The position numbers and the translations under genes were made by a program. Source: a bacterium (GTDB lineage Bacteria > UBA8248). From it: DNA of 64,000 nt. The DNA lies in the NCBI GenBank assembly GCA_965219955.1, contig OZ244799.1, positions 2,560,001 through 2,624,000 of the forward strand, written 5' to 3'. This document shows, piece after piece, positions 2,545-64,000 of the stretch; position 1 is the stretch's first letter; each line of letters opens with the position of its first letter. The notes beneath the pieces were generated by a model that saw only the letters and a program-made list of their open reading frames with translations, was not told the DNA's origin and searched no databases.

Positions 2545-3710
2545 TGACGAAGTCCATGATGAAAACGCTCTCGAACCGTTGGGTCGCGAAACTGAAAGTC
2601 AAGAAGGACACCGTGTATTGGGATCGCGATCTCACCGGCTTCGGGGTGCGGGTCTACCCCACGGGGAGCAAGGTCTATATCGCCCAGGCGCGCGGAACCG
2701 AAGGACCGAAACGGGTGGCGGTGGGCCGCCACGGCGTGATCCATGCCGATCAGGCGCGCAAGCGCGCGGCGCTCGTCATCGCGCGCATCAAGGCGGGCGA
2801 GGAACCTGTGCCTGAGCCGATGAAGCCCGCCTGCGGTCCCACGGTGGCCGAGCTCGCAAGGCGCTATCTCGCCGAATACGTATCCGTGCGGTGCAAGCCG
2901 CGCACCGTGAAGACGCTCCGCTCCGTGGTCGGCAGGAACATCGTGCCCGCGCTGGGCGCGATGCCGATATCCGCGGTCGAGCGCAAACACGTGGCGGAAC
3001 TCCACCAGCGGCTGAGCGCCACGCCCGCGGCGGCGAACCATGCCGTCCGGGCGCTGTCCGCGATGTACCGCCTCGCAGGTGAATGGGGTCTCGTGCCCGA
3101 GGGCGTGAATCCGTGCCGCGCCATCGCCGAATACCCGGTCGGCCGCCGGGAGCGCTTCCTCACCGAGGCGGAATTCATGCGTCTGGGAAAAACGCTTGAC
3201 GAGATAGAGGCCGGGGGCGGCGCGTCCGCGAGTGCTGTGGCGGCGATCAGGCTCCTGATCCTGACCGGGTGCCGGAAGTCGGAGGTCCTCACGCTGCGCT
3301 GGGAGGAGTTGGCGCTCGATCAAGCGGAACTGCGGCTCTCAGACTCCAAGACGGGCCCGCGGGTCGTTTCGCTCTCAGAGCCCGCGGTGAAACTCCTCGC
3401 GGGTCTGCCGCGCACCCCCGGCAATCCCTGGGTGCTCCCCGGCAGGAAGCCGGGTACGCACCTTCGGAAGCTCGATGACGCCTGGCAGTCCGTCCGCTCG
3501 CGCGCGGGGCTTCACGACGTGCGCCTCCATGACCTGCGCCATTCGTTCGCCTCGAGAGCTCTCGCGCTCGGCGAGGGGCTTTCCACGATAGGGAAATTGC
3601 TCGGCCACGCCCGGATCGAGACCACCTCGCGCTACGCGCATCTCGCGCGCGATTCGGTGCGCGAGTCCGCCGAGCGGGTCGCCGCGAGCATCGCCGAAGA
3701 CCTGCTGTAG
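2541..3710 (+). CDS. Tyrosine integrase 2, paralog translationally coupled to integrase 1
   Basis: WDRDLTGFGVRV; TGCRKSEV, DSKTG, HDLRH, LGH, RYAH; start overlaps the TGA of int1. Confidence 0.95.
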   Translation: MMTKSMMKTLSNRWVAKLKVKKDTVYWDRDLTGFGVRVYPTGSKVYIAQARGTEGPKRVAVGRHGVIHADQARKRAALVIARIKAGEEPVPEPMKPACGPTVAELARRYLAEYVSVRCKPRTVKTLRSVVGRNIVPALGAMPISAVERKHVAELHQRLSATPAAANHAVRALSAMYRLAGEWGLVPEGVNPCRAIAEYPVGRRERFLTEAEFMRLGKTLDEIEAGGGASASAVAAIRLLILTGCRKSEVLTLRWEELALDQAELRLSDSKTGPRVVSLSEPAVKLLAGLPRTPGNPWVLPGRKPGTHLRKLDDAWQSVRSRAGLHDVRLHDLRHSFASRALALGEGLSTIGKLLGHARIETTSRYAHLARDSVRESAERVAASIAEDLL

Positions 3711-50585: not shown

Positions 50586-51013
50586 TGTAAATTGGCGAAT
50601 GGTTCAGGGAATCGGGCGGATTCTGTTACAGGGGACGAGTGAGTTTTCCTAAGACTTGATCCGCCGCGCTGAAGAGCATAAACCCGAGCACCATGCTCAA
50701 CAATGCGATTACCGTCCGGTAAAGGATGCTCACAGCCATCTTCCGTTCTTGCTTTTCTTTTACGCGATGAACTGTAGTTGGATGAGGACTTAAAGGACGG
50801 TGCATTGTATATGTATACAGGAAAGCCGGTCGTTTCACCTGCGCTCCGAATTATGTGCCCGCCTTTCGGTGTTTTGTCGAACGTCTGTATCCTTTGATAC
50901 AAAAGTCCGTCCTAGTGTGGCCCACCTCTGGCAAGGATTCCCGCGCTTCTCTCCGGGTTGAAGAACATATCCTGGAGGGTTTCGTTACGAGCGCGTCCGG
51001 TCGGGAGGAGAAA

Positions 51014-51111
51014 AGGCCGACACCCCTCAAAGGGTTGGGTTGGCGAAAGATGGGAATTGTTGCGACACAATCCACGAGGTAACGCCGCCAGCCGAGTCGG
51101 GGTGTCGGCCT
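51014..51111. repeat. Long stem-loop with a 13-bp perfect outer stem
   Basis: AGGCCGACACCCC / GGGGTGTCGGCCT, with inner GGTTGGCG/CGCCAGCC and ATTGT/ACAAT stems. Confidence 0.65.
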
Positions 51112-51132
51112 ACTTCCATGAAGCGTAAAACA

Positions 51133-51235
51133 GGGGCTGCCCGCTGCTCCCGTTCCCGACCCGGAGGACTCAAACTCTCAGGCCGGGAACGGTACGCTTT
51201 GCTCCATCACGAGGGAAGCACCAGCGGACAACCCC
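51133..51235 (-). ncRNA. Candidate three-way-junction 3' UTR RNA (copy A')
   Basis: Exact reverse complement of 57912-58014. Confidence 0.6.
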
Positions 51236-51252
51236 GATTTCGCTCTCTTTTC

Positions 51253-53103
51253 CTAGTTTCTCGCGCCGAACGCGCCGGCCGCGACGCCGTTCCCGAAGCC
51301 GGCGTTGAACTCGCCCACCACGGTGTGCGGCTTTTCATCATTGTCATCACCCGTCGGGCCGTGGAAGGTGGCGCTGAAGCTGCCGTCGTCACTCGGGTGA
51401 CCGCCCTTCGCCGTGCCGGACGCGGTTGCATTGGACTCATCAATGTCACCGCTCAAAACCACTTCCCAGTTGTTCTCCTCACCGCCGGAGAGCTGGAAGT
51501 TGCTGATTGTCCCGGTCAGGGTGTTCAACTGACTCGGCGCGATGGTGCCCGTAGTGTCGGTGTCCGAAACAGGAACCTGACTGAAGGTCGCCGTCAAACT
51601 CACGGCCGCCGTGAAGTGGCCCGAAGTGGCCGCATCGACACTGCCGTCCGTCGTTTTGTAGGTTTCGTGCACGTATACGCCCACGGCGTCGCCGTTGTAT
51701 TCCGCGGTGCCCAGCACACTGGTAAGGCTTGAGGCTGTGGCGGGAACAGAAGAACCCGTGAAGGTCTGGACCGCGTTGTAGGTGACCGCGCCCTCAGAGT
51801 CCGTCGTCTTCATGATCCACACGCCGAAGTGCTTGAAGTCGGCATCCGAAACGTCGGAGGTCGCGCCCTCGGCGGGAGTGAATGCCCAACCCGCGCTCAT
51901 GGCTGTTATCGCGCCTTTATCACTGACCGTGACCGTGCAATCGGCGCTGGCGCTTGCACACCGGTACGTGCCCATCGCGCCGTTGTAGGTGCCCGCGGTT
52001 TCAAACGCCTTAATCGTCTGGTTTCCGTCGGTGCCCGCGTCGCTGTCCAGCTGGAACCTGGCGAAAGTGTGAACAGTGGACGAACCGCTGCCGGCGGCAA
52101 AGGCAGACGACCTGACCAGCTTTAGCGTGTCCCCCGTCGGAACCGTGGTGAGATCGTTGTCACTTGTACCACCGACCGAGAGAGCGGTCAGGTCGTTGTT
52201 AGCGGTGCCGTCGTTATCGGCGTCCTCGCTAAGCTCTAAGTCAACGTTCAGCGCCTGACCCGCCACCTTCGCGAACGCCGTCGCCTTCGGCGCCTCGATG
52301 TCGGTGCCGATGATCACGACTTCTTCTTCCACGTTGCCGTCGTCATCCGCTTCCATCGTGCGCGTGTGCATGCTGAAGGCGTTCTTGCCGCCGCCCAGAT
52401 CCATGGCGTGCATGAACTCGGGGTCGTCGTCACCTGCGCCCGGGACGGTAATCTCGATTTCCGTACCGTCTCGGTCGCGTGAGATGCCGATACCATAGTT
52501 ATTAGTAATCGTTGTAGCATCATCGAAGGGCGCTGCCGCGCTTGTAGCCTCCGCCGCGATGGCCGCTCTCTTCGAGGTGGCCGATTTCGTCACGGCCGCC
52601 GTCGCCGCCGCATCCGCCGCAGCTTGGGCCGCCATGCCCGACGCCGTCCGGGCATTCGCCAGCGCCGCTTCCGCATCGGCCTGCTGGCTTTCCGCTACGT
52701 CAGCGAGAGCCGACGCCGCATCCTGGCTCGACGCGTCTTGCGCCGCATTGCTCGCAGCCTCGGCTGCCGCGGCCGCCTCATTCGCCGCAGCTATCGCCGC
52801 AGCCGTTGCATCGTCATCCGCGTGGTCCAGCCCCGCAGCAGCCATAGCCGCCGCGCGCGCCGCGGTCGCCGCATCAGACGCTCTCTTTTTCGTCGCAGCC
52901 AGCTGTTCCGCCGCGAGATCAGCGGCCGACGTGCACGTTCCGTCTGCGTTATAGCGCCCACCGTCCGCCTCGCACATCTCTTGGGGTGTAGGAGTTGGTG
53001 CCGGCTCTTCTGCTGCAGTCCCACCACCGCCACCGCCGCAGCCCGCCAAACCAAGGGCAGCAACCAAGAGCGCCACCATGGTAAAGCTTCTCCATTTTTG
53101 CAT
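51253..53103 (-). CDS. Surface lipoprotein with Ala-rich stalk and TbpB-like C-terminal barrel (copy 1)
   Basis: Lipobox LAGC plus poly-Gly; ends GSFSATFHGP...VVGEFNA...AGAFGARN. Confidence 0.85.
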   Translation of the reverse strand: MQKWRSFTMVALLVAALGLAGCGGGGGGTAAEEPAPTPTPQEMCEADGGRYNADGTCTSAADLAAEQLAATKKRASDAATAARAAAMAAAGLDHADDDATAAAIAAANEAAAAAEAASNAAQDASSQDAASALADVAESQQADAEAALANARTASGMAAQAAADAAATAAVTKSATSKRAAIAAEATSAAAPFDDATTITNNYGIGISRDRDGTEIEITVPGAGDDDPEFMHAMDLGGGKNAFSMHTRTMEADDDGNVEEEVVIIGTDIEAPKATAFAKVAGQALNVDLELSEDADNDGTANNDLTALSVGGTSDNDLTTVPTGDTLKLVRSSAFAAGSGSSTVHTFARFQLDSDAGTDGNQTIKAFETAGTYNGAMGTYRCASASADCTVTVSDKGAITAMSAGWAFTPAEGATSDVSDADFKHFGVWIMKTTDSEGAVTYNAVQTFTGSSVPATASSLTSVLGTAEYNGDAVGVYVHETYKTTDGSVDAATSGHFTAAVSLTATFSQVPVSDTDTTGTIAPSQLNTLTGTISNFQLSGGEENNWEVVLSGDIDESNATASGTAKGGHPSDDGSFSATFHGPTGDDNDEKPHTVVGEFNAGFGNGVAAGAFGARN

Positions 53104-53280
53104 TACAATTCCTTCAGATATATTCTTTTTGTGCTAGGAAATGTTATGCTTGTATTCCTTTAATAAACATGCAGTTACAAGCTGTTGCGATATATCGTAT
53201 TTTTGGTCGGCGCGCCTCGTGTATCTGCCGAATCGCTCTCTTACTTGTACGGTTCCGCTAGCGTTGGAAACTTCCTTGCA

Positions 53281-53610
53281 TCAATCCTCGCTTGGCACCC
53301 GCAACCAGCCTGCAATGTCGCGCGCCCCATGCAGGATACGCCAGACGTCAATCTCGGTTTCCCTCTCGACATAGAAGACAAGATACGGATACTTCTCTAC
53401 GGTACGGAAGCGCAGGCCGGTGAGGTTGAGCTCATGCGCATAGCGGGGCGAACCCGCCTCCGGTCGTTCACTGATATGGCGGATGGCATCTTCGAGCGCG
53501 TCAATGAAGGTCAGCGCAACTGCTTCTCCCGACTCGGCCAGATAATGCTCGACTGCCTCTTCCACATCGCGCTGCGCACGCTCGCGAAGGACAACCTGTT
53601 TGCCGCTCAC
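53281..53610 (-). CDS. parE: ParE/RelE family toxin
   Basis: RERAQRDVEEAVEHY...PEAGSPRY...YPYLVFY...VWRILHGARDI. Confidence 0.9.
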   Translation of the reverse strand: MSGKQVVLRERAQRDVEEAVEHYLAESGEAVALTFIDALEDAIRHISERPEAGSPRYAHELNLTGLRFRTVEKYPYLVFYVERETEIDVWRILHGARDIAGWLRVPSED

Positions 53611-53846
53611 TGCGCAGGTGTTTGGCGAACCAGGCTGCGGAGCTGGTTGAAGTAGTCCTCATCGGCGGTATTTGCCGGTGGAGATGAAGCACCTTCGAGA
53701 AGCAGACCGCGCAGATATTGGCAATCCCGGTCCTTGCGGATCAATTCGCGTACATACTCGCTCGAAGTGCTGTAGCCGCGTGCGCTGACTTGATCGTCAA
53801 CGAAGGATTTCAGTGTCTCCGGCAATGATATGTTCATCGTATTCAT
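53607..53846 (-). CDS. parD: ParD family RHH antitoxin
   Basis: TMNISLPETLKSFVDDQV..RGYSTSSEYVRELIR. Confidence 0.9.
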   Translation of the reverse strand: MNTMNISLPETLKSFVDDQVSARGYSTSSEYVRELIRKDRDCQYLRGLLLEGASSPPANTADEDYFNQLRSLVRQTPAQ

Positions 53847-53852
53847 GGTTGA

Positions 53853-53881
53853 ATTCTGCCAGTATTGGCAAATTTTGTCAA
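53853..53881 (-). promoter_or_regulatory. parDE promoter with overlapping operator palindrome
   Basis: TTGACA, 17 bp, CAGAAT; TGCCA-GTAT-TGGCA palindrome at 53857-53870. Confidence 0.6.
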
Positions 53882-53966
53882 GAATCCATATTAAACGATT
53901 AAACGAACGAGAAACGAGTTCAAGATGCGCTCCTTGGTGATAAAGCAACTAAGTAAAGGGTATCCT

Positions 53967-54041
53967 ACCTTCCTCGGCCCGCCGACGGATGACGCTTAAC
54001 CGCCCATCGTGGCCAGCGCGTTCGGTGCGAGAAAGCAATGA
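53967..54041 (+). pseudogene. Remnant 3' end of a third TbpB-barrel lipoprotein gene
   Basis: Reads TFLGPPTDDA*PPIVASAFGARKQ*, compared with TFHGPTGDD...VAAGAFGARN*. Confidence 0.7.
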
Positions 54042-54138
54042 AGTTCCACTGGAGCAAGGCGCCTTCGGCCCTAGGGCTTGACAGCGCCGTGGCGAAGTTT
54101 GTATGAGAAAAAAGTGGAGGTTCCCTGAAAATAGCTTC

Positions 54139-54244
54139 GGGGGTTGCTCATTGGTTGCTCCACATCGTCGGGAGCAAATCGTACCGACTCGCGTTACAGA
54201 GTTTGAGTCCTCTCGGCGCGGGAAGGGAGCAATGAGTGACCCCC
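54139..54244 (+). ncRNA. Candidate three-way-junction RNA, diverged copy B
   Basis: Same fold as copy A with compensatory changes; shared GGAGCAAA-N-CGTACCG and AGAGTTTGAGTCCTC. Confidence 0.6.
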
Positions 54245-54736
54245 ACTTCAGGCTCACGGCCTGAGTCTTGTAGTCCCCCGGAAGTATGGCTCGAGAGGGC
54301 GGCCCCCGAAACGCCGTCTGCGCACCCGTGGCTGTACAACTCCGTGAAAGCCTCCTGCTCCTGAGTCTGAAGGCAGGTATCTCCCAACCCCGCTTCTTGA
54401 GCAGCCCCCCATCGGTCGATGAGCGATTCTGGATTGTATGCGTGCGCCGCCAATGAGCGGAGAATTTATCGGCTTCGGCCTTGCGTGAAAACGGTGCGCC
54501 GGATCCGCCGCGCTTCTCCGGGGGCCGTAGTCACGACGTGAAGGAAACGACTCCCCGGGTCGTGATGCCGTTCGTTCAAGACTCGTTAAAGAGGTTCGCG
54601 TGAGAGGCTGGCGACTATATGAGGCGGCTCCCCTTCGAGCGCGCTGGAACAGCGTCATCGAATCACAAGCGAATCGACTGAAACCCCCGCGCCGACTCCG
54701 GGGTCTTGTCCGCACATCCTGATTGGCTGCCCGCCG

Positions 54737-54997
54737 CTAGTCGGCTCTGCGGGCAACGAGGTCCAGGGTTCTCGGCTGGTCGCAGCGGACGATACCGGTT
54801 GTTCGGGTGCCCGCGAGAGAAACCGCGAAGCCCGCCCTGCGCGCAATGTCGCCGTCCGGTGCGACCGGCAAGACCACGGGCGTCCCGGTGAGCCTGTTGA
54901 ACGCGTCGGGGGATACGATCAGTACCGGACGGGCACCCTGTCGTTCATGGCCTGCGGCGGGGTCGAGACCGACGAGCCAGATTTTCTCCCGCTTCAC
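54737..54997 (-). CDS. pemK: PemK/MazF family toxin, C-terminally truncated
   Basis: LDPAAGHERQGARPVLIVSPDAFN...GIVRCDQPRTLD; only 86 aa. Confidence 0.8.
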   Translation of the reverse strand: MKREKIWLVGLDPAAGHERQGARPVLIVSPDAFNRLTGTPVVLPVAPDGDIARRAGFAVSLAGTRTTGIVRCDQPRTLDLVARRAD

Positions 54998-55254
54998 TAC
55001 AACAACTCGCTGCCGACCGGACCGGCCTCAACCCAGGCGCGGTCCCCGGCGAGCTGCGCAGCGGTCCCGACGCATTGCGCCAGAAGCTCATCGAGTGAAT
55101 AGGCGGGACGTGTCTTGGGCGCAACGATCAGGCGACCGTCCTCCACGGCGACGTCCACCTTCGCTCCGGCCCGGAGTTTCAGTAGGTCCAGAAGGTCGGG
55201 GGGAGCGGCGAGCATGATGGAACCACCGACCTTGCGGAGATTCGTCGTATGCAT
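54997..55254 (-). CDS. pemI: PemI/MazE (AbrB-fold) antitoxin
   Basis: MHTTNLRKVGGSIML...YSLDELLAQC...PVGSELL. Confidence 0.88.
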   Translation of the reverse strand: MHTTNLRKVGGSIMLAAPPDLLDLLKLRAGAKVDVAVEDGRLIVAPKTRPAYSLDELLAQCVGTAAQLAGDRAWVEAGPVGSELL

Positions 55255-56043
55255 GGCACCCTCCGGATGATACATAAATACAACATACCGAGGCCGGCAA
55301 TGCAATTTGGAGACATTCCTGAACCGGGTTTCGGGATGGTGCGCGTCCCGGTTCTACGAAACCGAAGAAAAGAAGAGCCGGTGGAACCGATGAGCTACAA
55401 TCCTGCGCAATGCGCGAGACAGCGACAGCACTCCTCGGGCAGCAGCGTGGCGCTATACTTCCCAGTGGTGTTGTGATCGGCGAAAGTTCTTTTAGAATAT
55501 GATCCTGCCTCCTTTTGTGAGAGGAGACACGATCACGAGGAGCGTTCACGCCGCCCCGGGCTGCTGAAAAATCCCTGTCCGGAGAGCCTGTATATGAATC
55601 TATATCGCCGTGTCGACGAAGTGATGACGGAAGGCGTGGCGCCAGAGAACGATCGAGGGACGGCGACGCCGCCCGGGGGTTTTGTCCCGGCTCTTGTTTC
55701 CCGGCGGTTGCACCCAGCGGGAAGGGCGGGTAGAATCACCGAACATACGGCTTGACTTTGATGCCTCGTTATGCAAGATTTTGTCGTAATATCTATTGAC
55801 TCGTAGAGTCGGATGCCGTAATAAAGACTTTAATCATCTGGACTTCGCCCGAACCTTTACGATAAAGTAAACAATAATGAACTATCAGGGTATACAACGG
55901 GAGGAGGACATAACGAAAGATTCAGCAAAATGAAGCGGAACAGAAAACGAAGGAATACGGGAAGAATCTCAAGATAGAAAAAAGGAATAATCTACATCGC
56001 CCGCTGTGGGCAATCCAACAAGTAATTTTAGGGAGGAATTGTA

Positions 56044-57894
56044 ATGCAAAAATGGAGAAGCTTTACCATGGTGGCGCTCTTGGTTGCTGCCCTTGGTTTG
56101 GCGGGCTGCGGCGGTGGCGGTGGTGGGACTGCAGCAGAAGAGCCGGCACCAACTCCTACACCCCAAGAGATGTGCGAGGCGGACGGTGGGCGCTATAACG
56201 CAGACGGAACGTGCACGTCGGCCGCTGATCTCGCGGCGGAACAGCTGGCTGCGACGAAAAAGAGAGCGTCTGATGCGGCGACCGCGGCGCGCGCGGCGGC
56301 TATGGCTGCTGCGGGGCTGGACCACGCGGATGACGATGCAACGGCTGCGGCGATAGCTGCGGCGAATGAGGCGGCCGCGGCAGCCGAGGCTGCGAGCAAT
56401 GCGGCGCAAGACGCGTCGAGCCAGGATGCGGCGTCGGCTCTCGCTGACGTAGCGGAAAGCCAGCAGGCCGATGCGGAAGCGGCGCTGGCGAATGCCCGGA
56501 CGGCGTCGGGCATGGCGGCCCAAGCTGCGGCGGATGCGGCGGCGACGGCGGCCGTGACGAAATCGGCCACCTCGAAGAGAGCGGCCATCGCGGCGGAGGC
56601 TACAAGCGCGGCAGCGCCCTTCGATGATGCTACAACGATTACTAATAACTATGGTATCGGCATCTCACGCGACCGAGACGGTACGGAAATCGAGATTACC
56701 GTCCCGGGCGCAGGTGACGACGACCCCGAGTTCATGCACGCCATGGATCTGGGCGGCGGCAAGAACGCCTTCAGCATGCACACGCGCACGATGGAAGCGG
56801 ATGACGACGGCAACGTGGAAGAAGAAGTCGTGATCATCGGCACCGACATCGAGGCGCCGAAGGCGACGGCGTTCGCGAAGGTGGCGGGTCAGGCGCTGAA
56901 CGTTGACTTAGAGCTTAGCGAGGACGCCGATAACGACGGCACCGCTAACAACGACCTGACCGCTCTCTCGGTCGGTGGTACAAGTGACAACGATCTCACC
57001 ACGGTTCCGACGGGGGACACGCTAAAGCTGGTCAGGTCGTCTGCCTTTGCCGCCGGCAGCGGTTCGTCCACTGTTCACACTTTCGCCAGGTTCCAGCTGG
57101 ACAGCGACGCGGGCACCGACGGAAACCAGACGATTAAGGCGTTTGAAACCGCGGGCACCTACAACGGCGCGATGGGCACGTACCGGTGTGCAAGCGCCAG
57201 CGCCGATTGCACGGTCACGGTCAGTGATAAAGGCGCGATAACAGCCATGAGCGCGGGTTGGGCATTCACTCCCGCCGAGGGCGCGACCTCCGACGTTTCG
57301 GATGCCGACTTCAAGCACTTCGGCGTGTGGATCATGAAGACGACGGACTCTGAGGGCGCGGTCACCTACAACGCGGTCCAGACCTTCACGGGTTCTTCTG
57401 TTCCCGCCACAGCCTCAAGCCTTACCAGTGTGCTGGGCACCGCGGAATACAACGGCGACGCCGTGGGCGTATACGTGCACGAAACCTACAAAACGACGGA
57501 CGGCAGTGTCGATGCGGCCACTTCGGGCCACTTCACGGCGGCCGTGAGTTTGACGGCGACCTTCAGTCAGGTTCCTGTTTCGGACACCGACACTACGGGC
57601 ACCATCGCGCCGAGTCAGTTGAACACCCTGACCGGGACAATCAGCAACTTCCAGCTCTCCGGCGGTGAGGAGAACAACTGGGAAGTGGTTTTGAGCGGTG
57701 ACATTGATGAGTCCAATGCAACCGCGTCCGGCACGGCGAAGGGCGGTCACCCGAGTGACGACGGCAGCTTCAGCGCCACCTTCCACGGCCCGACGGGTGA
57801 TGACAATGATGAAAAGCCGCACACCGTGGTGGGCGAGTTCAACGCCGGCTTCGGGAACGGCGTCGCGGCCGGCGCGTTCGGCGCGAGAAACTAG
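56044..57894 (+). CDS. Surface lipoprotein with TbpB-like C-terminal barrel (copy 2, identical)
   Basis: Same 616-aa translation as 51253-53103. Confidence 0.85.
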   Translation: MQKWRSFTMVALLVAALGLAGCGGGGGGTAAEEPAPTPTPQEMCEADGGRYNADGTCTSAADLAAEQLAATKKRASDAATAARAAAMAAAGLDHADDDATAAAIAAANEAAAAAEAASNAAQDASSQDAASALADVAESQQADAEAALANARTASGMAAQAAADAAATAAVTKSATSKRAAIAAEATSAAAPFDDATTITNNYGIGISRDRDGTEIEITVPGAGDDDPEFMHAMDLGGGKNAFSMHTRTMEADDDGNVEEEVVIIGTDIEAPKATAFAKVAGQALNVDLELSEDADNDGTANNDLTALSVGGTSDNDLTTVPTGDTLKLVRSSAFAAGSGSSTVHTFARFQLDSDAGTDGNQTIKAFETAGTYNGAMGTYRCASASADCTVTVSDKGAITAMSAGWAFTPAEGATSDVSDADFKHFGVWIMKTTDSEGAVTYNAVQTFTGSSVPATASSLTSVLGTAEYNGDAVGVYVHETYKTTDGSVDAATSGHFTAAVSLTATFSQVPVSDTDTTGTIAPSQLNTLTGTISNFQLSGGEENNWEVVLSGDIDESNATASGTAKGGHPSDDGSFSATFHGPTGDDNDEKPHTVVGEFNAGFGNGVAAGAFGARN

Positions 57895-57911
57895 GAAAAG
57901 AGAGCGAAATC

Positions 57912-58014
57912 GGGGTTGTCCGCTGGTGCTTCCCTCGTGATGGAGCAAAGCGTACCGTTCCCGGCCTGAGAGTTTGAGTCCTCCGGGTCGGGAACGGGAG
58001 CAGCGGGCAGCCCC
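57912..58014 (+). ncRNA. Candidate three-way-junction 3' UTR RNA (copy A)
   Basis: P1 GGGGTTGTCCGCTG/CAGCGGGCAGCCCC; P2 TGCTTC/GGAGCA; P3 CCGTTCCCGGCCTG/CGGGTCGGGAACGG capped by GAG-TTTGAGTC-CTC. Confidence 0.6.
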
Positions 58015-58060
58015 GTTTCCTTGACATGAGACATTGTCCGTCCTCAACAACCCCTCTTCA

Positions 58061-61000
58061 ATGATGAATCCTCTCGACAAACCCTGCCCGGGTATCGCTT
58101 GCTCTTCGCGCCGCGCCCCTGGCGTCGCCATAGCGGTACTTCTCTTTATCGCCACCCTCTCTTGCCTGATGCCGCAAACGGCGTCGGCGCAGGATAGCGC
58201 CACCTACACCTTCACCTTCGAGGGCAACTGGAACCTGCGGAGCGCGCCCAAGGGGGTTCCGTCCAACGCGTATTTCACGGCGATCATCTGGCGCACTCAC
58301 GACAGCGGGATCACCTACTGGAAGCCGGGCGGCATGGCGAGCAGGGGCGTGGAGGTGGTCGCGGAAGACGGCGCCACTCATATTTTCGCCGATGAAACCA
58401 TCGCCGAAGGGGCAAGGGACCACCTGGGAACTGGCGATGTGTTCGGTGTGCCGAGAGGCGGTAATACGAGGGGGAGCACGAAAATCCGTTTCCGGAGCAA
58501 GAAATACCCCCGTCTCACCTTCCTGTCGATGCTCGGCCCCACACCGGACTGGTTCGTGGGCGTCTCGGGCATCTCGCTGCTGGATTCGAAAGGCAACTGG
58601 GTCCGTTCGAAAACCATGAGTCTGTATGCTTACGACGCCGGCACCGAGGAGGGGAGCGAGTATACGCAGAACAACCCCGCTTCGAACCCTCACGTGCCGA
58701 TATTCAGCCTCAAGGGCAAAGGCAAGTTTTCGGGTTCGAGCGTTCCGGTGGCGAGGATCAGACTCGAACTAGACGTTCCGCCGAACCCGGTAAACCTCAA
58801 GGTGGGCGGGAAAACCGCCGCCGTCATCGGCGAAGGCGGCGCACTCGATATCACGGCGGCGCTGAACAGCGTCAACGACTCGGGTGGTGCTCTCGCCATT
58901 CCCATCCGGGTACGAAGCAATGGCTCCACCGCCGGGAGCAATGACTACACGCTGGGCGCGGCTTCTGTCGCCATCGCCGACAACGCACGCACCGGTACGG
59001 TGAAGTTTACGGCGAACGATGACGGCGCCGATGAACCGCCGGAGAAGGTGATTGTGGAACTGGGCAGTTCCTTGCCGAAAGGCGTCACGGCCGGGTCCGG
59101 CAATACGGTGACGATCACCATCGCCGACGACGACGCCACGGTGGTGAGTCTCGCGCGAACCGATTCGGGCGCTATCGCCGAGGGAGGGACGGGCGCGAGG
59201 GAAAACGCCGAATTCACGGTAAGCCTGGGCCGTGCGCTGGCCGCCGGAGAGCGCATAGACGTTCCGCTGGTATTCTCCGGCGCGGGCATCACCTCGGCCG
59301 ACCTCGAGGCACTGGCATTGAAGTCCGGCAGCCACCTCAACACGGGCGTTACGCTTTCCGGGGCCGGGACGCTCACGCCCGTGATCCGCTTTCAGGGCGC
59401 GAACGCCCGGACCGCCACACTGGAACTGACGCCAGCCGACGATGACGAGGTGGAGGGCAACGAGAGCCTGCGTGTCGCCCTCGGCCCGGACGGGAGCGGG
59501 ACGAACGGGTTTGACCGCAGCGCCCTCGGCACGAACGTCGGCGGCGGATCGGACCCTCACAAAACCAGCAATTCCTTCAATCTGATACTTGAATCGGATG
59601 ACGATCCACCACCTTCGACGCCTGTTGTGAGCATAGCGGGCGGCAGCGCCGTCACCGAGGGCGGCACGGCGACCTTCACACTGAGTGCGTCTCCCAAGCC
59701 CCCGGCTGGTATTACCGTGAGGGTGACGGTCACCGACAGCGGCGCGTTCGCCGGGAGCGGTCAGTCGGGTACGAGGACGCTCGCCATGGGAACGGGCGGC
59801 ACGGCCGTCCTCACGGTCACGACGCTCAACGACGAAATCGACGAGGAGAACGGCTCGATCACGGCGACGGTCGCTGCGGGCGATGGGTATTCACCATCAA
59901 ATACCAAAGGCACGGCGACGGTCGCGGTGAGCGACGACGACTTGCCGCTGCCTGTGGCGTCGTTCTCCTCCTCCTCGCAAAGCGCTGGGGAGAACGCGGG
60001 AACGCGCAACGTGAGGGTGAACCTGTCCCGGACCCCGGCTTCGGGCTTCACGCTGAACTATTCGGTAAAGGGTACGGCAGTCTCGGGCGTGGACTACACG
60101 GCGCTTCCGGGCAGCGTTTCGGTGTCATCGGGTGCGGCGAGTGTGGATATTCCGGTGAAAATCACCGACGACGGAGCGGACGAGGGTAGCGAGACGGTTT
60201 TGCTGACACTCACCGCGGGCGAGGGCTACGAGGTGGGGAGCACGAACGTCCACACACTGACCATCGAAGACAATGACGATCCACCACCTTCGACGCCTGT
60301 TGTGAGCATAGCGGGCGGCAGCGCCGTCACCGAGGGCGGCACGGCGACCTTCACACTGAGTGCGTCTCCCAAGCCCCCGGCTGGTATTACCGTGAGGGTG
60401 ACGGTCACCGACAGCGGCGCGTTCGCCGGGAGCGGTCAGTCGGGTACGAGGACGCTCGCCATGGGAACGGGCGGCACGGCCGTCCTCACGGTCACGACGC
60501 TCAACGACGAAATCGACGAGGAGAACGGCTCGATCACGGCGACGGTCGCTGCGGGCGATGGGTATTCACCATCAAATACCAAAGGCACGGCGACGGTCGC
60601 GGTGAGCGACGACGACTTGCCGCTGCCTGTGGCGTCGTTCTCCTCCTCCTCGCAAAGCGCTGGGGAGAACGCGGGAACGCGCAACGTGAGGGTGAACCTG
60701 TCCCGGACCCCGGCTTCGGGCTTCACGCTGAACTATTCGGTAAAGGGTACGGCAGTCTCGGGCGTGGACTACACGGCGCTTCCGGGCAGCGTTTCGGTGT
60801 CATCGGGTGCGGCGAGTGTGGATATTCCGGTGAAAATCACCGACGACGGAACGGACGAGGGTAGCGAGACGGTTTTGCTGACACTCACCGCGGGCGAGGG
60901 CTACGAGGTGGGGAGCACGAACGTCCACACACTGACCATCGAAGACAATGACGATCCACCACCTTCGACGCCTGTTGTGAGCATAGCGGGCGGCAGCGCC

Positions 61001-64000
61001 GTCACCGAGGGCGGCACGGCGACCTTCACACTGAGTGCGTCTCCCAAGCCCCCGGCTGGTATTACCGTGAGGGTGACGGTCACCGACAGCGGCGCGTTCG
61101 CCGGGAGCGGTCAGTCGGGTACGAGGACGCTCGCCATGGGAACGGGCGGCACGGCCGTCCTCACGGTCACGACGCTCAACGACGAAATCGACGAGGAGAA
61201 CGGCTCGATCACGGCGACGGTCGCTGCGGGCGATGGGTATTCACCATCAAATACCAAAGGCACGGCGACGGTCGCGGTGAGCGACGACGACTTGCCGCTG
61301 CCTGTGGCGTCGTTCTCCTCCTCCTCGCAAAGCGCTGGGGAGAACGCGGGAACGCGCAACGTGAGGGTGAACCTGTCCCGGACCCCGGCTTCGGGCTTCA
61401 CGCTGAACTATTCGGTAAAGGGTACGGCAGTCTCGGGCGTGGACTACACGGCGCTTCCGGGCAGCGTTTCGGTGTCATCGGGTGCGGCGAGTGTGGATAT
61501 TCCGGTGAAAATCACCGACGACGGAGCGGACGAGGGTAGCGAGACGGTTTTGCTGACACTCACCGCGGGCGAGGGCTACGAGGTGGGGAGCACGAACGTC
61601 CACACACTGACCATCGAAGACAATGACGATCCACCACCTTCGACGCCTGTTGTGAGCATAGCGGGCGGCAGCGCCGTCACCGAGGGCGGCACGGCGACCT
61701 TCACACTGAGTGCGTCTCCCAAGCCCCCGGCTGGTATTACCGTGAGGGTGACGGTCACCGACAGCGGCGCGTTCGCCGGGAGCGGTCAGTCGGGTACGAG
61801 GACGCTCGCCATGGGAACGGGCGGCACGGCCGTCCTCACGGTCACGACGCTCAACGACGAAATCGACGAGGAGAACGGCTCGATCACGGCGACGGTCGCT
61901 GCGGGCGATGGGTATTCACCATCAAATACCAAAGGCACGGCGACGGTCGCGGTGAGCGACGACGACTTGCCGCTGCCTGTGGCGTCGTTCTCCTCCTCCT
62001 CGGTGGCTCTCCAGATAGGGACGCTGCCGGAGGGAGGCCTGTCACTCGATGAGGGGGATTCGGCAAGCTACACATTGGTGCTGACGGCGCAGCCCACGGA
62101 CCCGGTGAGAGTGACACCCGAAAGTGCGCACCCGGAGGCGGTGTCGGTGCGTCCGGCGTGGCTGGAATTCACTCCGGACAACTGGGACGCGCCGCAAAAT
62201 GTGACCCTGACTGCTGTGGTCGATGGAGACGCCCAAGACGAGAGCGTGGTTGTCTCTCACGCAGTATCGAGCGCAGACGCGCGCTACGGGGGGCTCGACG
62301 GCGGGACGGTGCGGGTGAGTGTCTCGGACGCTAGTGGACCGCAGTTCGTGTCGACGCATTTCGCGTTCACGATAGCGGAGAACACGGTGGGTCCGACGCC
62401 CGTACGCGGTGCCGGGGGTAGCCCCGGAGCGGTGCGCGCGACTGGGAACGGCGTCAGGTACACCATGGCCGGCGGCGGCGAACTTTTTCTGGTCGATGCG
62501 GAGACGGGTGCAGTGACCTATACGGGCTCGGGCGAACCGACGGGGCGCCATGAACTGACCATTCTTGCCAGCGACGCGCTGGGGCGCGTCGCCAGGACAC
62601 GGGTAAGCGTACGGGTTATAGAGGATCCGTCGTCTGTGGCCGCAGGACTGCTGCGTATTGCGCGCACCGGGGCGGACCACGTGCTGGAGGGCATCGCCTC
62701 GCGACTTGAAGCAGTGCGAAGACTGGGTATCGAGGTTCGCCTGGCAGGACAAGACATTCTGGCCCTTGAGGGGAATGATGGAACGTCAAGCCTTGCGTCT
62801 GCGATCAACTCTGCGCACGGGCGTCGAGGTGAAAGGATGGAGGCACGATCGGTCGGACGTGCCCTGTCGGAAGAGGAATTGCTGAGGGGGGTGGCGTTCG
62901 CGCTGAGCGGAGATATGACGCCGGGCGGCGCGTCCTGGTCGGCCTGGGGCAGGGGGACCGGTTCCCGATTCGACGAACAGGAGGGAGAGCGCTCCATGCA
63001 GGGCGAGGTGCTGACGGGCATCGTCGGCCTCGACAGGAGAGAGGGACGGTGGCTGACGGGCCTGGTGGTTTCACGCAGCGCAGGTGAGGGTGAGTGGAGC
63101 GGACCAGGCAACGAGCGATGGCAGATGGAGACCGACCTCACGATCCTCGCGCCCTATACGGCGTTCAGTCTCTCGGACCCGGTCACGCTCTGGGGGACGG
63201 TGGGCTACGGGCGGGGTTCGCTCGGGGTGAAGCGCCCCGGAGGCGGTTCGAGCGAGACCGACGTAGATACGACCTTGTTGGCGGCGGGCGTCCGGGGGGA
63301 GTTGATCGAGGCGCCGCCCGGGGGCGGGTTCGGCCTCGCCGTTAAATCGGACGTGCTGTGGCTGCGGGCGAATTCGGACGAGGAGAACGGTCTCTCCGCC
63401 ACGTCGCAGGACGCGACCAGGTCCCGGCTCGCTCTGGTAGCCTCGTGGCGTGGTAGATTCGAGGGTTATGGTGAACTGGGAATGAAGCTGGAGTTGGGTG
63501 GGCGTCATGAAGGAGACGACGCGGAGAGCGGTTTCGGGGTGGAAGCGGGCGTTGCCGTAAACTGGAGCGACCAGAGGCGCGGAATCGGTATTCAGGTCGA
63601 AGGACGGGTTCTGACGCTTCACGACGCCTTCGATACGAGTGAGGAAGGCCTCTCGGTTTCTCTTTCCTGGATGCCGGGCGGGACGTCGCCGCTGGGTCCC
63701 TCGATCGCGTTCCGTCTCGACAGGGGAGCGCCTTCTCCGGGTGGGCTCGATCGCCTGGCGGCGTCCGGTACCGGAACGGCCTCGGACGAAGCGACTGGCC
63801 GGGCTTACTCTTTCGAGGCGGCCTGGGGTTTCCCTGCCTTCGGTGGGCGGTTCGTGGGTAGCCCCTATATCCGTCACGGTTTCTCCTCTGCGGCGAACGA
63901 CTATACCTTCGGCTGGCGCCTTGCCCCGGCCGCGCCCGAGGCTTTCGACCTCACCCTCGGGGTTCAAGCCACGATGAGCGAGAACGGAGACGAGAATCCC
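58061..64000 (+). CDS. Large adhesin-like autotransporter: signal peptide, Spondin_N, Calx-beta-like repeats, cadherin-like domain, beta-barrel (runs off window)
   Basis: Not in the ORF track; frame consistent at checkpoints to the window end; SMLGPTPDWFVGVS and YDAGTE (spondin); WSAWGRG...GEVLTGIVGLD (autotransporter barrel). Confidence 0.88.
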   Translation, partial: MMNPLDKPCPGIACSSRRAPGVAIAVLLFIATLSCLMPQTASAQDSATYTFTFEGNWNLRSAPKGVPSNAYFTAIIWRTHDSGITYWKPGGMASRGVEVVAEDGATHIFADETIAEGARDHLGTGDVFGVPRGGNTRGSTKIRFRSKKYPRLTFLSMLGPTPDWFVGVSGISLLDSKGNWVRSKTMSLYAYDAGTEEGSEYTQNNPASNPHVPIFSLKGKGKFSGSSVPVARIRLELDVPPNPVNLKVGGKTAAVIGEGGALDITAALNSVNDSGGALAIPIRVRSNGSTAGSNDYTLGAASVAIADNARTGTVKFTANDDGADEPPEKVIVELGSSLPKGVTAGSGNTVTITIADDDATVVSLARTDSGAIAEGGTGARENAEFTVSLGRALAAGERIDVPLVFSGAGITSADLEALALKSGSHLNTGVTLSGAGTLTPVIRFQGANARTATLELTPADDDEVEGNESLRVALGPDGSGTNGFDRSALGTNVGGGSDPHKTSNSFNLILESDDDPPPSTPVVSIAGGSAVTEGGTATFTLSASPKPPAGITVRVTVTDSGAFAGSGQSGTRTLAMGTGGTAVLTVTTLNDEIDEENGSITATVAAGDGYSPSNTKGTATVAVSDDDLPLPVASFSSSSQSAGENAGTRNVRVNLSRTPASGFTLNYSVKGTAVSGVDYTALPGSVSVSSGAASVDIPVKITDDGADEGSETVLLTLTAGEGYEVGSTNVHTLTIEDNDDPPPSTPVVSIAGGSAVTEGGTATFTLSASPKPPAGITVRVTVTDSGAFAGSGQSGTRTLAMGTGGTAVLTVTTLNDEIDEENGSITATVAAGDGYSPSNTKGTATVAVSDDDLPLPVASFSSSSQSAGENAGTRNVRVNLSRTPASGFTLNYSVKGTAVSGVDYTALPGSVSVSSGAASVDIPVKITDDGTDEGSETVLLTLTAGEGYEVGSTNVHTLTIEDNDDPPPSTPVVSIAGGSAVTEGGTATFTLSASPKPPAGITVRVTVTDSGAFAGSGQSGTRTLAMGTGGTAVLTVTTLNDEIDEENGSITATVAAGDGYSPSNTKGTATVAVSDDDLPLPVASFSSSSQSAGENAGTRNVRVNLSRTPASGFTLNYSVKGTAVSGVDYTALPGSVSVSSGAASVDIPVKITDDGADEGSETVLLTLTAGEGYEVGSTNVHTLTIEDNDDPPPSTPVVSIAGGSAVTEGGTATFTLSASPKPPAGITVRVTVTDSGAFAGSGQSGTRTLAMGTGGTAVLTVTTLNDEIDEENGSITATVAAGDGYSPSNTKGTATVAVSDDDLPLPVASFSSSSVALQIGTLPEGGLSLDEGDSASYTLVLTAQPTDPVRVTPESAHPEAVSVRPAWLEFTPDNWDAPQNVTLTAVVDGDAQDESVVVSHAVSSADARYGGLDGGTVRVSVSDASGPQFVSTHFAFTIAENTVGPTPVRGAGGSPGAVRATGNGVRYTMAGGGELFLVDAETGAVTYTGSGEPTGRHELTILASDALGRVARTRVSVRVIEDPSSVAAGLLRIARTGADHVLEGIASRLEAVRRLGIEVRLAGQDILALEGNDGTSSLASAINSAHGRRGERMEARSVGRALSEEELLRGVAFALSGDMTPGGASWSAWGRGTGSRFDEQEGERSMQGEVLTGIVGLDRREGRWLTGLVVSRSAGEGEWSGPGNERWQMETDLTILAPYTAFSLSDPVTLWGTVGYGRGSLGVKRPGGGSSETDVDTTLLAAGVRGELIEAPPGGGFGLAVKSDVLWLRANSDEENGLSATSQDATRSRLALVASWRGRFEGYGELGMKLELGGRHEGDDAESGFGVEAGVAVNWSDQRRGIGIQVEGRVLTLHDAFDTSEEGLSVSLSWMPGGTSPLGPSIAFRLDRGAPSPGGLDRLAASGTGTASDEATGRAYSFEAAWGFPAFGGRFVGSPYIRHGFSSAANDYTFGWRLAPAAPEAFDLTLGVQATMSENGDENP
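59598..62002 (+). repeat. 675-bp in-frame tandem repeat, about 3.6 copies
   Basis: Unit starts at 59598, 60273, 60948, 61623; one difference seen (60851 A vs G at 60176 and 61526). Confidence 0.97.

What the first reader, a model, noticed from the sequence alone, without database searches (positions are those of the whole stretch)
57912..58014. Unrecognised ~103-nt three-way-junction RNA motif with covariation and a T-loop-like cap
Seen: copies A and B differ in their stems but keep pairing. P1 is GTCCGCTG/CAGCGGGC vs GCTCATTG/CAATGAGT, and P3 is CCCGGCC/GGTCGGG vs CTCGCGTT/GGCGCGGG. The junction GGAGCAAA-N-CGTACCG, the loop GAGTTTGAGTCCTC (like tRNA GTTCGAGTC) and the GGGAGCA junction are conserved. 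G-T pairs favour the mRNA-sense strand. I cannot match it to a riboswitch or ribozyme I know. Inference: a novel 3' UTR element such as a self-cleaving ribozyme, nuclease block, tRNA mimic or mobility signal.
Basis: partly seen in the sequence, partly recalled or inferred. Interest (0 to 1): 0.85.

Follow-up and report, generated by a model that had tools for sequence, protein, structure and literature searches.

The report
Structured RNA element after lipoprotein genes
A 105-base sequence that folds into a conserved three-armed shape sits just after the stop codon of a family of surface-lipoprotein genes in one genus of uncultured bacteria; it matches no catalogued RNA family and most likely acts on the tail of those messages.

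Summary
The window has three copies: 57912-58014(+), an exact twin at 51133-51235(-), and a divergent copy at 54139-54244(+). The own genome holds 12-13 copies. A covariance model finds 3-18 per genome in 16 of 22 other genomes of the genus. One further copy lies elsewhere in the class.

Across 83 distinct copies, 94.9% of cells pair, against 38-58% in slid controls. 16 of 31 pairs change on both sides. G-U pairs outnumber A-C 265 to 35, so the folded strand is that of the upstream gene. Rfam and ARAGORN find nothing.

74 of 113 copies lie 5-282 nt (median 75) after long ORFs of one unannotated lipoprotein family, whose model weakly resembles TbpB and HphA. Eight more follow remnants of such genes. 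Many copies are followed by an intrinsic terminator.

Best reading: an uncatalogued cis-acting structured RNA in the 3' UTR, probably a stability, processing or protein-binding module. It is kept similar between paralogous loci by gene conversion or movement. A DNA-level mobile or recombination element is the main rival. No target duplications, no Y1 transposase and no varied insertion contexts were found. No expression data could be had, so function is inferred.

The parts
57912..58014 (+). Element copy A (the finding). P1 57912-57925 with 58001-58014. P2 57927-57932 with 57942-57947, loop 57933-57941. J2/3 57948-57954 (AAGCGTA). P3 57955-57968 with 57984-57997. Cap stem 57970-57972 with 57981-57983, cap loop 57973-57980 (TTTGAGTC). 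J3/1 57998-58000.
   Evidence: Sequence; MFE fold; consensus fold; model match 57909-58017, 103.9 bits.
51133..51235 (-). Element copy A', the exact twin of copy A at the end of the other inverted arm.
   Evidence: model match 51130-51238(-), 99.2 bits.
54139..54244 (+). Element copy B. It is the divergent 'type II' form (GGGGGTTGCTCATTG...CAATGAGTGACCCCC). Its stems are changed but still pair.
   Evidence: model match 54137-54246, 101 bits.
56044..57894 (+). 616-aa lipoprotein gene with an LAGC lipobox, ending ...AAGAFGARN. Its stop lies 17 nt before copy A.
   Evidence: No Pfam or NCBIfam family over cut-off. AF2 model with mean pLDDT 81.7. Weak Foldseek likeness to HphA and TbpB.
51253..53103 (-). 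Identical second copy of the 616-aa lipoprotein gene, followed by copy A'.
54000..54041 (+). Remnant of the 3' end of a family gene (...PPIVASAFGARKQ*, 13 open codons), 97 nt before copy B.
50968..51107 (-). Conserved downstream module that follows copy A'. It is a branched hairpin closed by GCCGACACCCC/GGGGTGTCGGC, followed by TTTTCTCC.
   Evidence: In the own genome all 6 matches lie after an element copy.
51133..53114 (.). Left arm of the inverted duplication. It runs from about 10 nt before the start codon to the last base of the element.
   Evidence: arms given as 1999 nt. (my reading: identity starts near GGAATTGTAATG). (contig pieces break at 51133 and near 53084-53114; arm depth is about twice that of the flanks).
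56033..58014 (.). Right arm of the inverted duplication. It ends exactly at the 3' end of copy A.

Best explanation
The element is an uncatalogued cis-acting structured RNA. It is transcribed as part of the 3' untranslated region of surface-lipoprotein mRNAs.

It folds into a three-way junction. A 14-15 bp G+C-rich closing helix (P1) can be lengthened by pairing of the purine-rich 5' flank with the pyrimidine-rich 3' flank. A short hairpin (P2) carries an invariant UCGU in its loop. A long hairpin (P3) is capped by the conserved loop UUUGAGUC (or UUGGGUC).

The stems change freely as long as they pair. The unpaired nucleotides of L2, J2/3 (NGUA), L3 and J3/1 (GGGAA) stay fixed. This is the pattern of an RNA with a defined tertiary fold or a bound partner.

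Inferred mechanism: it sets the fate of the 3' end of the message. It would act as a barrier to 3'-to-5' exonucleases, or as a recognition or processing site for a protein or RNase, upstream of the terminator.

Shown: the structure, the strand, the position, the family link and the distribution. Inferred: that it is transcribed, and what it does. Its near-identity between paralogous loci is read as gene conversion between 3' ends (concerted evolution).
For: Structure:
- On a MAFFT alignment of 83 of the 96 distinct copies, 94.9% of 2570 cells pair, against 38.2-58.5% when partners are slid by 1-3 columns. 16 of 31 pairs change on both sides, and 0 of 500 shuffles reach the covariation score.
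- On the model-fitted alignment of 96 rows, 96.2% of cells pair and 24 of 36 pairs change on both sides.

Strand:
- There are 265 G-U cells against 35 A-C cells.
- The sense folds are more stable than the antisense folds: -68.0 vs -53.1 and -47.2 vs -37.1 kcal/mol.

Position:
- 74 of 113 copies lie 5-282 nt (median 75) after a long ORF on the same strand ending G[AGS][FY][GAST][AVT]. Eight more follow remnants. Only 1 has such an ORF end on the other side.
- 14 of 14 further copies from metagenome contigs follow such ORFs at 63-118 nt.
- On the same strand the element is followed either by a strong hairpin plus U-run about 45 nt on or by a 150-nt branched hairpin module.

Conserved unpaired bases:
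- The invariant columns include TCGT in L2, TA in J2/3, T-G-GTCCT in the cap and GG-A in J3/1.
- The one copy outside the genus (G042) keeps these while its stems differ (sequence; 58 bits).

Not coding:
- Copies differ by 1-2 nt indels in the P2 loop.

Co-occurrence with the gene family in the class (51 genomes):
- In the genus, 14 genomes have both, 2 the element only, 1 the gene only and 5 neither.
- Outside the genus, 1 has both, 1 the gene only and 26 neither. Kin are not independent.
Against: - There is no expression or 3'-end evidence at all.
- Element, 35-nt leader and downstream module are 86-100% identical between own-genome loci whose upstream coding 3' ends are only 58-68% identical. 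Also, 44 of 113 copies have their nearest relative in the same genome, against 12.4 in label shuffles. This fits gene conversion, but equally recent movement of a DNA element.
- The boundaries are sharp (GGGG...CCCC). The 1.98-kb duplication in the window ends exactly at the element's last base.
- Copies persist after gene remnants (copy B) and as tandem arrays of 2-3.
- G-T pairs are also tolerated in single-stranded DNA hairpins, so the strand bias does not prove RNA.
- Other paralogues of the same gene family in the same genus do without it and carry a plain hairpin plus terminator. The family's genes in other phyla lack it too: 68 of 80 loci have no real match.
- The specific mechanism (nuclease barrier or processing site) rests on analogy only.
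Confidence: 0.5

Rival explanations
1. It is a non-autonomous mobile or recombinogenic DNA element. This could be a MITE-like unit or a '3' cassette end'. Its terminal inverted repeats (P1) and internal hairpins would act as single-stranded or cruciform DNA. It would spread or be exchanged between the 3' ends of lipoprotein genes, perhaps as an anchor for gene conversion of these variable surface proteins.
For: - It is multicopy (3-18 per genome).
- Its ends are perfect 13-15 bp terminal inverted repeats with sharp boundaries.
- It is 86-100% identical between loci whose genes are 58-68% identical.
- There is an excess of within-genome nearest neighbours, 44 of 113 against 12.4.
- Tandem copies occur.
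- The duplicated arm ends at its last base.
- IS256-, IS110- and IS4-like transposase genes lie beside or inside some host loci.
Against: - There are no target-site duplications beyond chance: the longest flanking direct repeat is 0-4 nt in 95 copies, no more than in controls.
- Orientation and context are fixed: 82 copies follow a family gene or remnant on the same strand, against 1 on the other side.
- No Y1/RAYT transposase is found in the own genome.
- The strand bias is 265 G-U to 35 A-C.
- Stems covary while loops and junctions stay invariant. That is not the decay pattern of a selfish repeat.
- Neither pattern match in viral contigs is a model match.
Confidence: 0.22
2. It is a stable small RNA cut out of the 3' UTR. 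This would be a 3'-UTR-derived trans-acting sRNA, or a protein-bound particle in the manner of Y RNA or tRNA-like RNAs. The long P0/P1 helix would serve as the processing site.
For: - It is a compact, self-contained fold with a long closing helix and conserved single-stranded loops.
- Flank pairing extends P1: mean duplex energy is -13.1 against -10.3 kcal/mol for shuffled flanks, sd 3.9.
- The sequence is identical at several loci, as expected if the product rather than the host mRNA matters.
Against: - No Ro/TROVE gene is found in the own genome.
- No Rfam sRNA or Y RNA model matches.
- No promoter-like site of its own is found. That scan covers sigma-70-type promoters only.
- The flank-pairing excess is under one standard deviation.
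- No RNA data exist.
Confidence: 0.15
3. It is a self-cleaving ribozyme or a ligand-sensing aptamer of a new class, placed in the 3' UTR.
For: A three-way junction with invariant junction and loop nucleotides and freely covarying stems is the usual look of ribozymes and aptamers.
Against: - No known ribozyme or riboswitch model matches, even at E up to 10.
- The position after the gene, not before one, is unusual for a riboswitch.
- The alternative pairing of GGGAGCA with the P2 5' strand that could make a switch is broken in most copies (GGGAACA).
Confidence: 0.08
4. The functional product is an antisense small RNA. It would be read from a promoter-like TTGCCA-N18-TATAAG just downstream and end at P1 followed by the U-rich complement of the purine-rich leader.
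For: - By my reading of the sequences, many copies carry TATAC...TGGCAA about 10-40 nt downstream. On the other strand this reads as -35 and -10-like hexamers aimed at the element.
- The complement of the leader is UUUUCGCUCUCC directly after the P1 helix.
Against: - The antisense strand would carry about three A-C mismatches per copy (265 G-U cells on the sense strand against 35 A-C).
- The antisense strand folds worse.
- The promoter scan did not call these sites.
- The motif is missing from copies with the other downstream module.
Confidence: 0.04

Closest known systems
REP/BIME, ERIC and Correia-type repeated palindromes co-transcribed into 3' UTRs (recalled from the literature, not read here)
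   Same: Short (35-155 nt) multicopy extragenic palindromes. They are often transcribed with the upstream gene, fold in the mRNA, and alter its stability or are cut by RNases. Their copies are kept alike within a genome.
   Different: Those are simple or imperfect hairpins scattered after many unrelated genes in both orientations. Several have transposase partners or target duplications. This element is a three-way junction with invariant loops, is tied to one gene family in one orientation, has no target duplication, and its genome has no Y1 transposase.
Integron attC sites
   Same: A structured, strand-specific imperfect palindrome of 57-141 nt at the 3' end of a gene 'cassette'. Sequence varies but pairing is kept.
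   Different: The recalled core-site order (RYYYAAC ... GTTRRRY) is not present; here GTT lies at the 5' end and AAC at the 3' end. Copies are dispersed on both strands rather than in a one-way array. The inner loops are conserved. No integron integrase was looked for.
tRNA and tRNA-like structures
   Same: The cap loop G-UUUGA-GU-C can be written as a T-loop (recalled motif: U-N-N-R-A closed by G-C). A second hairpin stands where a D arm would.
   Different: ARAGORN finds no tRNA and Rfam tRNA or TLS models do not match. There are three helices, not four. A 3-8 nt linker separates P3 from the 3' strand of P1. In 'type III' copies the loop is UUGGGUC, without the A.
Conserved 3' sequences of variable surface-protein loci, such as the Sma/Cla repeat after Neisseria pilin genes (recalled)
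   Same: A sequence shared by the 3' ends of all or many paralogous loci of a variable surface protein. It is far better conserved than the genes and marks the edge of gene-conversion tracts.
   Different: That repeat is not known for a covarying strand-specific fold. Here pairing is maintained through changes on both sides.
Orphan structured RNA motifs found by comparative genomics (the Rfam 'motif' families)
   Same: A gene-associated conserved fold with covariation and unknown biochemical role.
   Different: Most lie 5' of the genes they accompany. This one lies 3' of them, is multicopy, and is limited to one genus plus one copy elsewhere in the class.

Membership tests
Any Rfam 15 family (ribozymes, riboswitches, sRNAs, Y RNA, tRNA-like) | Covariance-model score at or above the family's gathering score | tested here: not met
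   There are 0 matches in the 64-kb window. In 57850-58080 at E up to 10 there are four matches, all at E >= 1.6 and 8-15 bits against gathering scores of 40-100.
tRNA / tmRNA | Cloverleaf detected by ARAGORN | tested here: not met
   0 genes in the window.
tRNA-like structure | T-loop (recalled 5-nt motif U-N-N-R-A closed by a G-C pair) | tested here: inconclusive
   The UUUGA in the cap of types I and II fits. Type III has UUGGG.
MITE (Correia/ERIC-like) | Terminal inverted repeats | tested here: met
   P1 is a 14-15 bp terminal inverted repeat, and is perfect in types II and III.
MITE (Correia/ERIC-like) | Target-site duplication flanking the element | tested here: not met
   The longest flanking direct repeat in 95 copies is 0 nt in 56, 2 nt in 37, 3 nt in 1 and 4 nt in 1. 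Controls give as much or more.
MITE (Correia/ERIC-like) | Insertions in varied contexts and in both orientations relative to neighbouring genes | tested here: not met
   82 of 113 copies follow a family gene or remnant on the same strand, and 1 has one on the other side. 14 of 14 metagenome copies do the same.
REPIN / REP with RAYT | A Y1 (RAYT/IS200-type) transposase gene in the genome | tested here: not met
   PF01797 has 0 matches in the own genome (94% complete). The control rang in 6 of 14 known genomes.
Integron attC | One-way array of cassettes; core sites RYYYAAC...GTTRRRY (recalled consensus) | tested here: not met
   The 11 copies are dispersed over 2.6 Mb on both strands. The ends read GGGGGTTG...CAACCCC, the opposite order. 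The integrase was not searched for.
Bacterial Y RNA / YrlA | Ro (TROVE) protein encoded in the genome | tested here: not met
   PF05731 has 0 matches in the own genome. The control rang in 2 of 14.
Riboswitch | Aptamer 5' of the regulated gene with an expression platform | tested here: not met
   The element lies 3' of its associated gene. Downstream genes are unrelated or on the other strand. Ligand binding is not testable here.
Self-cleaving ribozyme | Site-specific self-scission | not testable with these tools
   The only evidence is the absence of matches to known classes.
Intrinsic terminator | G+C-rich hairpin directly followed by a U run | tested here: not met
   The element is branched and is followed by UGUUUCGC or UGCUCUUCUUAUAC. 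Separate hairpin plus U6-9 terminators lie about 45 nt further on. The simple scan found none at the window copy.
TbpB/HphA-like surface lipoproteins (host gene, not the element) | Lipobox plus C-terminal handle/beta-barrel fold | tested here: inconclusive
   An LAGC lipobox is present. The AF2 model has mean pLDDT 81.7 and a beta-rich C-terminal half. The best Foldseek hits are HphA 6om5 (E 1.1e-3, prob 0.96), TbpB 4o3w (E 1.1e-3) and 4qq1 (E 2e-3), and HphA 8gm3 (E 4.3e-3). None is below 1e-3 and TM scores are 0.15-0.37. There are no Pfam, NCBIfam or PDB sequence matches.

The most novel reading that the evidence does not exclude
The element would be a new class of self-contained structured RNA. 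It would be built from a T-loop-like cap and a sarcin-ricin-like (GUA/GAA) junction, and would itself be the unit that moves. That is, a 105-nt module, with its 35-nt leader and terminator module, copied between the 3' ends of surface-lipoprotein genes. It would both mark those messages for a dedicated RNA-binding or processing factor and supply the homology that lets the genes be swapped by conversion. The result would couple RNA-level control with diversification of surface antigens in an uncultured lineage.
Probability: 0.12. Interest if true: 0.8.

Novelty: new variant of a known kind. Interest (0 to 1): 0.6.

Why it matters
Well-supported structured RNAs in bacterial 3' UTRs are few. This one has unusually clean comparative support, a fixed link to one family of probable surface lipoproteins, and conserved unpaired nucleotides that point to a partner. 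If it controls the stability or processing of these messages, it would be a lineage-specific layer of control over cell-surface proteins in bacteria known only from metagenome-assembled genomes.

If it instead moves between gene ends, it would be an unusual target-specific repeat. Either way it deserves an RNA-family entry and is small enough for direct biochemical tests. Its reach is narrow (one genus plus one copy elsewhere in the class), which limits its general importance.

Tried and rejected
Known families. The Rfam gathering scan of the window, the permissive scan of 231 nt and ARAGORN found nothing.

Expression. The look-up of sequencing runs (kind rna) on window:50500-58500 listed no RNA holder, only 4 runs of one sample and study held as contigs. 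So nothing can be said on transcription. Laying those contigs only confirmed the repeat boundaries and the roughly double depth of the arms. They probably come from the sample behind the assembly and are not independent.

Coding. The ORFs that the ORF listing and my script draw through the element are rejected, because copies differ by 1-2 nt indels.

Alternative pairing. GGGAGCA with the 5' strand of P2 is possible in copies A and B, but is broken by G-to-A in most copies.

Tertiary pairs. A mutual-information scan of unpaired columns gave no convincing pseudoknot or kissing pair. The L2-L3 pairing (CUCG with UGAG) is my reading and shows no covariation.

Flank pairing (P0). It is seen in several registers, but the excess over shuffled flanks is small: -13.1 against -10.3 kcal/mol, sd 3.9.

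Element outside the genus. R1 on 80 loci encoding relatives of the lipoprotein gave 13 full forward matches in 12 loci. All 12 are from records titled 'MAG: bacterium' or 'MAG: Nitrospinota bacterium'. There was also one 32-nt piece at a contig end (E 0.28) and one 29-nt piece (E 0.49). The other 66 loci gave none. Of 2 pattern matches in viral contigs, 0 matched the model.

Literature. Three searches (listings and abstract starts only, no paper read) found nothing on this element or on its motif strings. This is not proof that it is unpublished. Supplementary files were not consulted.

Sequence-level PDB search with the lipoprotein profile found no relative: best E 0.09.

Rows dropped. Alignment A3 used 83 of the 96 distinct forward copies. 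Left out were the twin of copy A and the 12 lowest-scoring copies: the 'type IV' tandem partners, one G022 copy and the G042 copy. A6 includes them. Four opposite-strand echoes of real copies (E 3.7e-4 to 8.7e-4) were removed before all counts.

Full report
WHAT IS THERE. The conserved strings GAGTTTGAGTCCTC and GGAGCAAANCGTACCG each occur three times in the window, against 0.30 and 0.15 expected. The three copies are A (57912-58014, +), B (54139-54244, +) and A' (51133-51235, -).

A and A' are identical because they end the two arms of an inverted duplication, reported as 1999 nt. By my reading, true identity begins about 10 nt before the ATG. Contig pieces of four runs of one sample break at 51133, 53084-53114, 56034-56063 and 58014, and give the arms about twice the depth of the flanks. 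Each arm carries a 616-aa lipoprotein gene whose stop lies 17 nt before the element. Copy B follows a 13-codon remnant ending AFGARKQ*. It lies among ParE/ParD and MazF/MazE genes.

THE FOLD. Copy A folds at -68.0 kcal/mol (z -6.99) and copy B at -47.2 (z -3.71). The opposite strands fold at -53.1 and -37.1. Eight own-genome copies give a consensus three-way junction:
- P1, 15 pairs.
- P2, 6 pairs.
- P3, about 14 pairs, with a 3-4 bp cap stem and a 7-8 nt loop.

A model built from them (R1) found 113 forward-strand copies in the window and fetched loci, of which 96 are distinct.

On a structure-blind MAFFT alignment of 83 of these, with pairs that I wrote by hand for P1, P2 and outer P3:
- 94.9% of 2570 cells pair, against 38-58% when partners are slid.
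- 16 of 31 pairs change on both sides.
- No shuffle of 500 reaches the observed covariation score.

On the model-fitted alignment of 96 rows the figures are 96.2% and 24 of 36 pairs. That alignment leans towards the structure. Much of the covariation separates a few subfamilies (types I, II, III/IV and the A form), so the cell counts overstate the number of events. But several pairs show four to six pair types (for example 17-102, 58-88 and 59-87).

Unpaired positions are the most conserved:
- UCGU in the P2 loop.
- (N)GUA before P3.
- U.G.GUCCU in the cap.
- GGGA(A) after P3.

From memory, GUA opposite GAA next to C-G pairs is the look of a sarcin-ricin/loop E module, and G-UUUGA-GU-C that of a T-loop. 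Neither could be tested here.

WHICH STRAND. Of the paired cells, 2174 are Watson-Crick, 265 are G-U and 35 are A-C. A-C cells would be G-U on the other strand. The folded strand is therefore the one that carries the upstream gene. This favours RNA, but single-stranded DNA cannot be excluded.

WHERE IT OCCURS. The own genome (4.28 Mb, one contig) has 11 copies by nhmmer and 12-13 by the models. Within the class (51 genomes held):
- The element is in 16 of 22 other genomes of the genus, at 3-18 matches each.
- It is in none of 19 genomes of other genera of the family.
- It is in none of 2 genomes of the other two families of the order.
- It is in 1 of 7 genomes of another family (G042, 58 bits).

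It is in none of 15 genomes from other lineages. Thirteen metagenome contigs matching a strict pattern hold 14 more copies. Two pattern matches in viral contigs are not model matches.

WHAT IT GOES WITH. Of 113 copies, 74 lie 5-282 nt (median 75) after a long ORF on the same strand whose product ends G[AGS][FY][GAST][AVT]xx. Eight follow short remnants of such ORFs. Thirty-one show none by this strict rule. Most of these belong to one conserved locus with two or three tandem copies after a degenerate ...AFGTH... remnant. Only one copy has such a gene end on its other side. All 14 metagenome copies follow such ORFs.

The genes often come in pairs, and only the second is followed by the element. 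The proteins have a lipobox, a long helical region and a beta-rich C-terminal half. They match no Pfam, NCBIfam or PDB sequence. Their model resembles the haemophore HphA and TbpB only weakly (best E 1.1e-3).

Relatives are encoded in metagenome-assembled genomes whose titles name many phyla. There the element is missing. Of 80 such loci, only 12 hold it, all titled 'MAG: bacterium' or 'MAG: Nitrospinota bacterium'.

Even within the genus, other paralogues end with a small hairpin and a classical terminator instead. Across the class, element and gene family go together: 15 genomes have both, 2 the element only, 2 the gene only and 31 neither, not counting the own genome. These genomes are kin, not independent trials.

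WHAT SURROUNDS IT. Upstream lies a G+C-rich hairpin and a purine-rich leader (GGAGAGCGAAAA or GGAAGAAGAGUGGAAAA). Downstream there are two arrangements:
- A 150-nt branched hairpin module. It has 6 matches in the own genome, all after an element copy, and follows 25 of 86 copies elsewhere.
- A pyrimidine-rich spacer, a small variable hairpin and a strong hairpin with a run of 6-9 U about 45 nt on.

The leader can pair with the spacer in several registers and so lengthen P1, but the excess over shuffled flanks is small. This layout (stop codon, element, terminator, all on one strand) is why I read the element as part of the 3' UTR.

HOW IT EVOLVES. Between own-genome loci the coding 3' ends are 58-68% identical. 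The element is 86-100% identical. In four loci the 35-nt leader is 97-100% and the 175 nt downstream 87-98% identical. Forty-four of 113 copies have their nearest relative in the same genome, against 12.4 (maximum 23) in label shuffles. So the 3' module is homogenised or moves between loci.

The window's duplication, which runs from the ribosome-binding site to the last base of the element, is a fresh example. Against transposition:
- No flanking direct repeats beyond chance.
- A fixed orientation and context.
- No Y1 transposase.

IS256-, IS110- and IS4-type transposase genes do lie in or beside some host loci.

VERDICT. The element is a new family of structured sequence, most likely an RNA in the 3' UTR of surface-lipoprotein messages (0.5). 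The conserved loops and junction serve as a recognition surface. The long closing helix serves as a nuclease barrier or processing site. That mechanism is inferred, not shown.

The rivals are:
- A DNA-level mobile or recombination element (0.22).
- An excised small RNA (0.15).
- A new ribozyme or aptamer (0.08).
- An antisense sRNA (0.04).

Noticed in passing
window 58064-64000 (+), repeats 59598-62297: A giant open frame (over 1978 aa, running off the window) has Spondin_N, Calx-beta and cadherin domains. It contains four perfect 675-nt (225-aa) tandem repeats. It starts about 50 nt after element copy A, with no terminator between.
   Followed up: partly
window 53281-53948 (-) and 54737-55305 (-): Two type II toxin-antitoxin pairs lie between the inverted arms: ParE (E 5e-14) with a ParD-like partner, and PemK/MazF (E 2e-18) with a MazE-like partner. 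Copy B and its gene remnant lie there too.
   Followed up: yes
window 50968-51107 (-); own genome at 1626926, 2634318, 2931432, 3306497, 4266399: A second conserved structured module of about 150 nt lies downstream of the element. It is closed by GCCGRCACCCC/GGGGTGTCGGC and has inner hairpins. In the own genome it is found only after element copies (all 6 matches).
   Followed up: partly
L019:1818-2102 (G000:C1:3669899-3670183); L106:1501-1977 (G006): One locus, found in many genomes of the genus, carries two diverged tandem copies of the element about 180 nt apart (three in G006). They follow a degenerate or intact gene end ...AFG(T/A)H(R/K)RR*, with the stop only 4-5 nt before the first copy.
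   Followed up: partly
L110, L123, L157, L168 (about 250-330 nt after the stop of element-less paralogues): Another shared sequence (GGGGGAGTTGATTTTAGGGGGCCGATGTAGCAGACTTCGGCATCGTCCGTTCGGATGGGGCTC) recurs downstream of several paralogues that lack the element. It may be a further repeat family.
   Followed up: no
L018:511-1734 and 2013-3233; L189:4291-5721: Transposase genes interrupt or flank lipoprotein loci that carry the element. A Mutator/IS256-type gene lies upstream and an IS110-type gene downstream of copy 2634191. A DDE_Tnp_1_4 gene lies inside the gene before copy 2364659.
   Followed up: yes
L037:1501-1607 (G042:C3:221867-221973): This is the only copy outside the genus. Its stems are largely rewritten, but L2 CGUG, J2/3 AGUAC, the cap UUGAGUCCUC and J3/1 GGAAC are kept. 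It lies 282 nt after a family gene ending AGAFGARKMEE*.
   Followed up: partly
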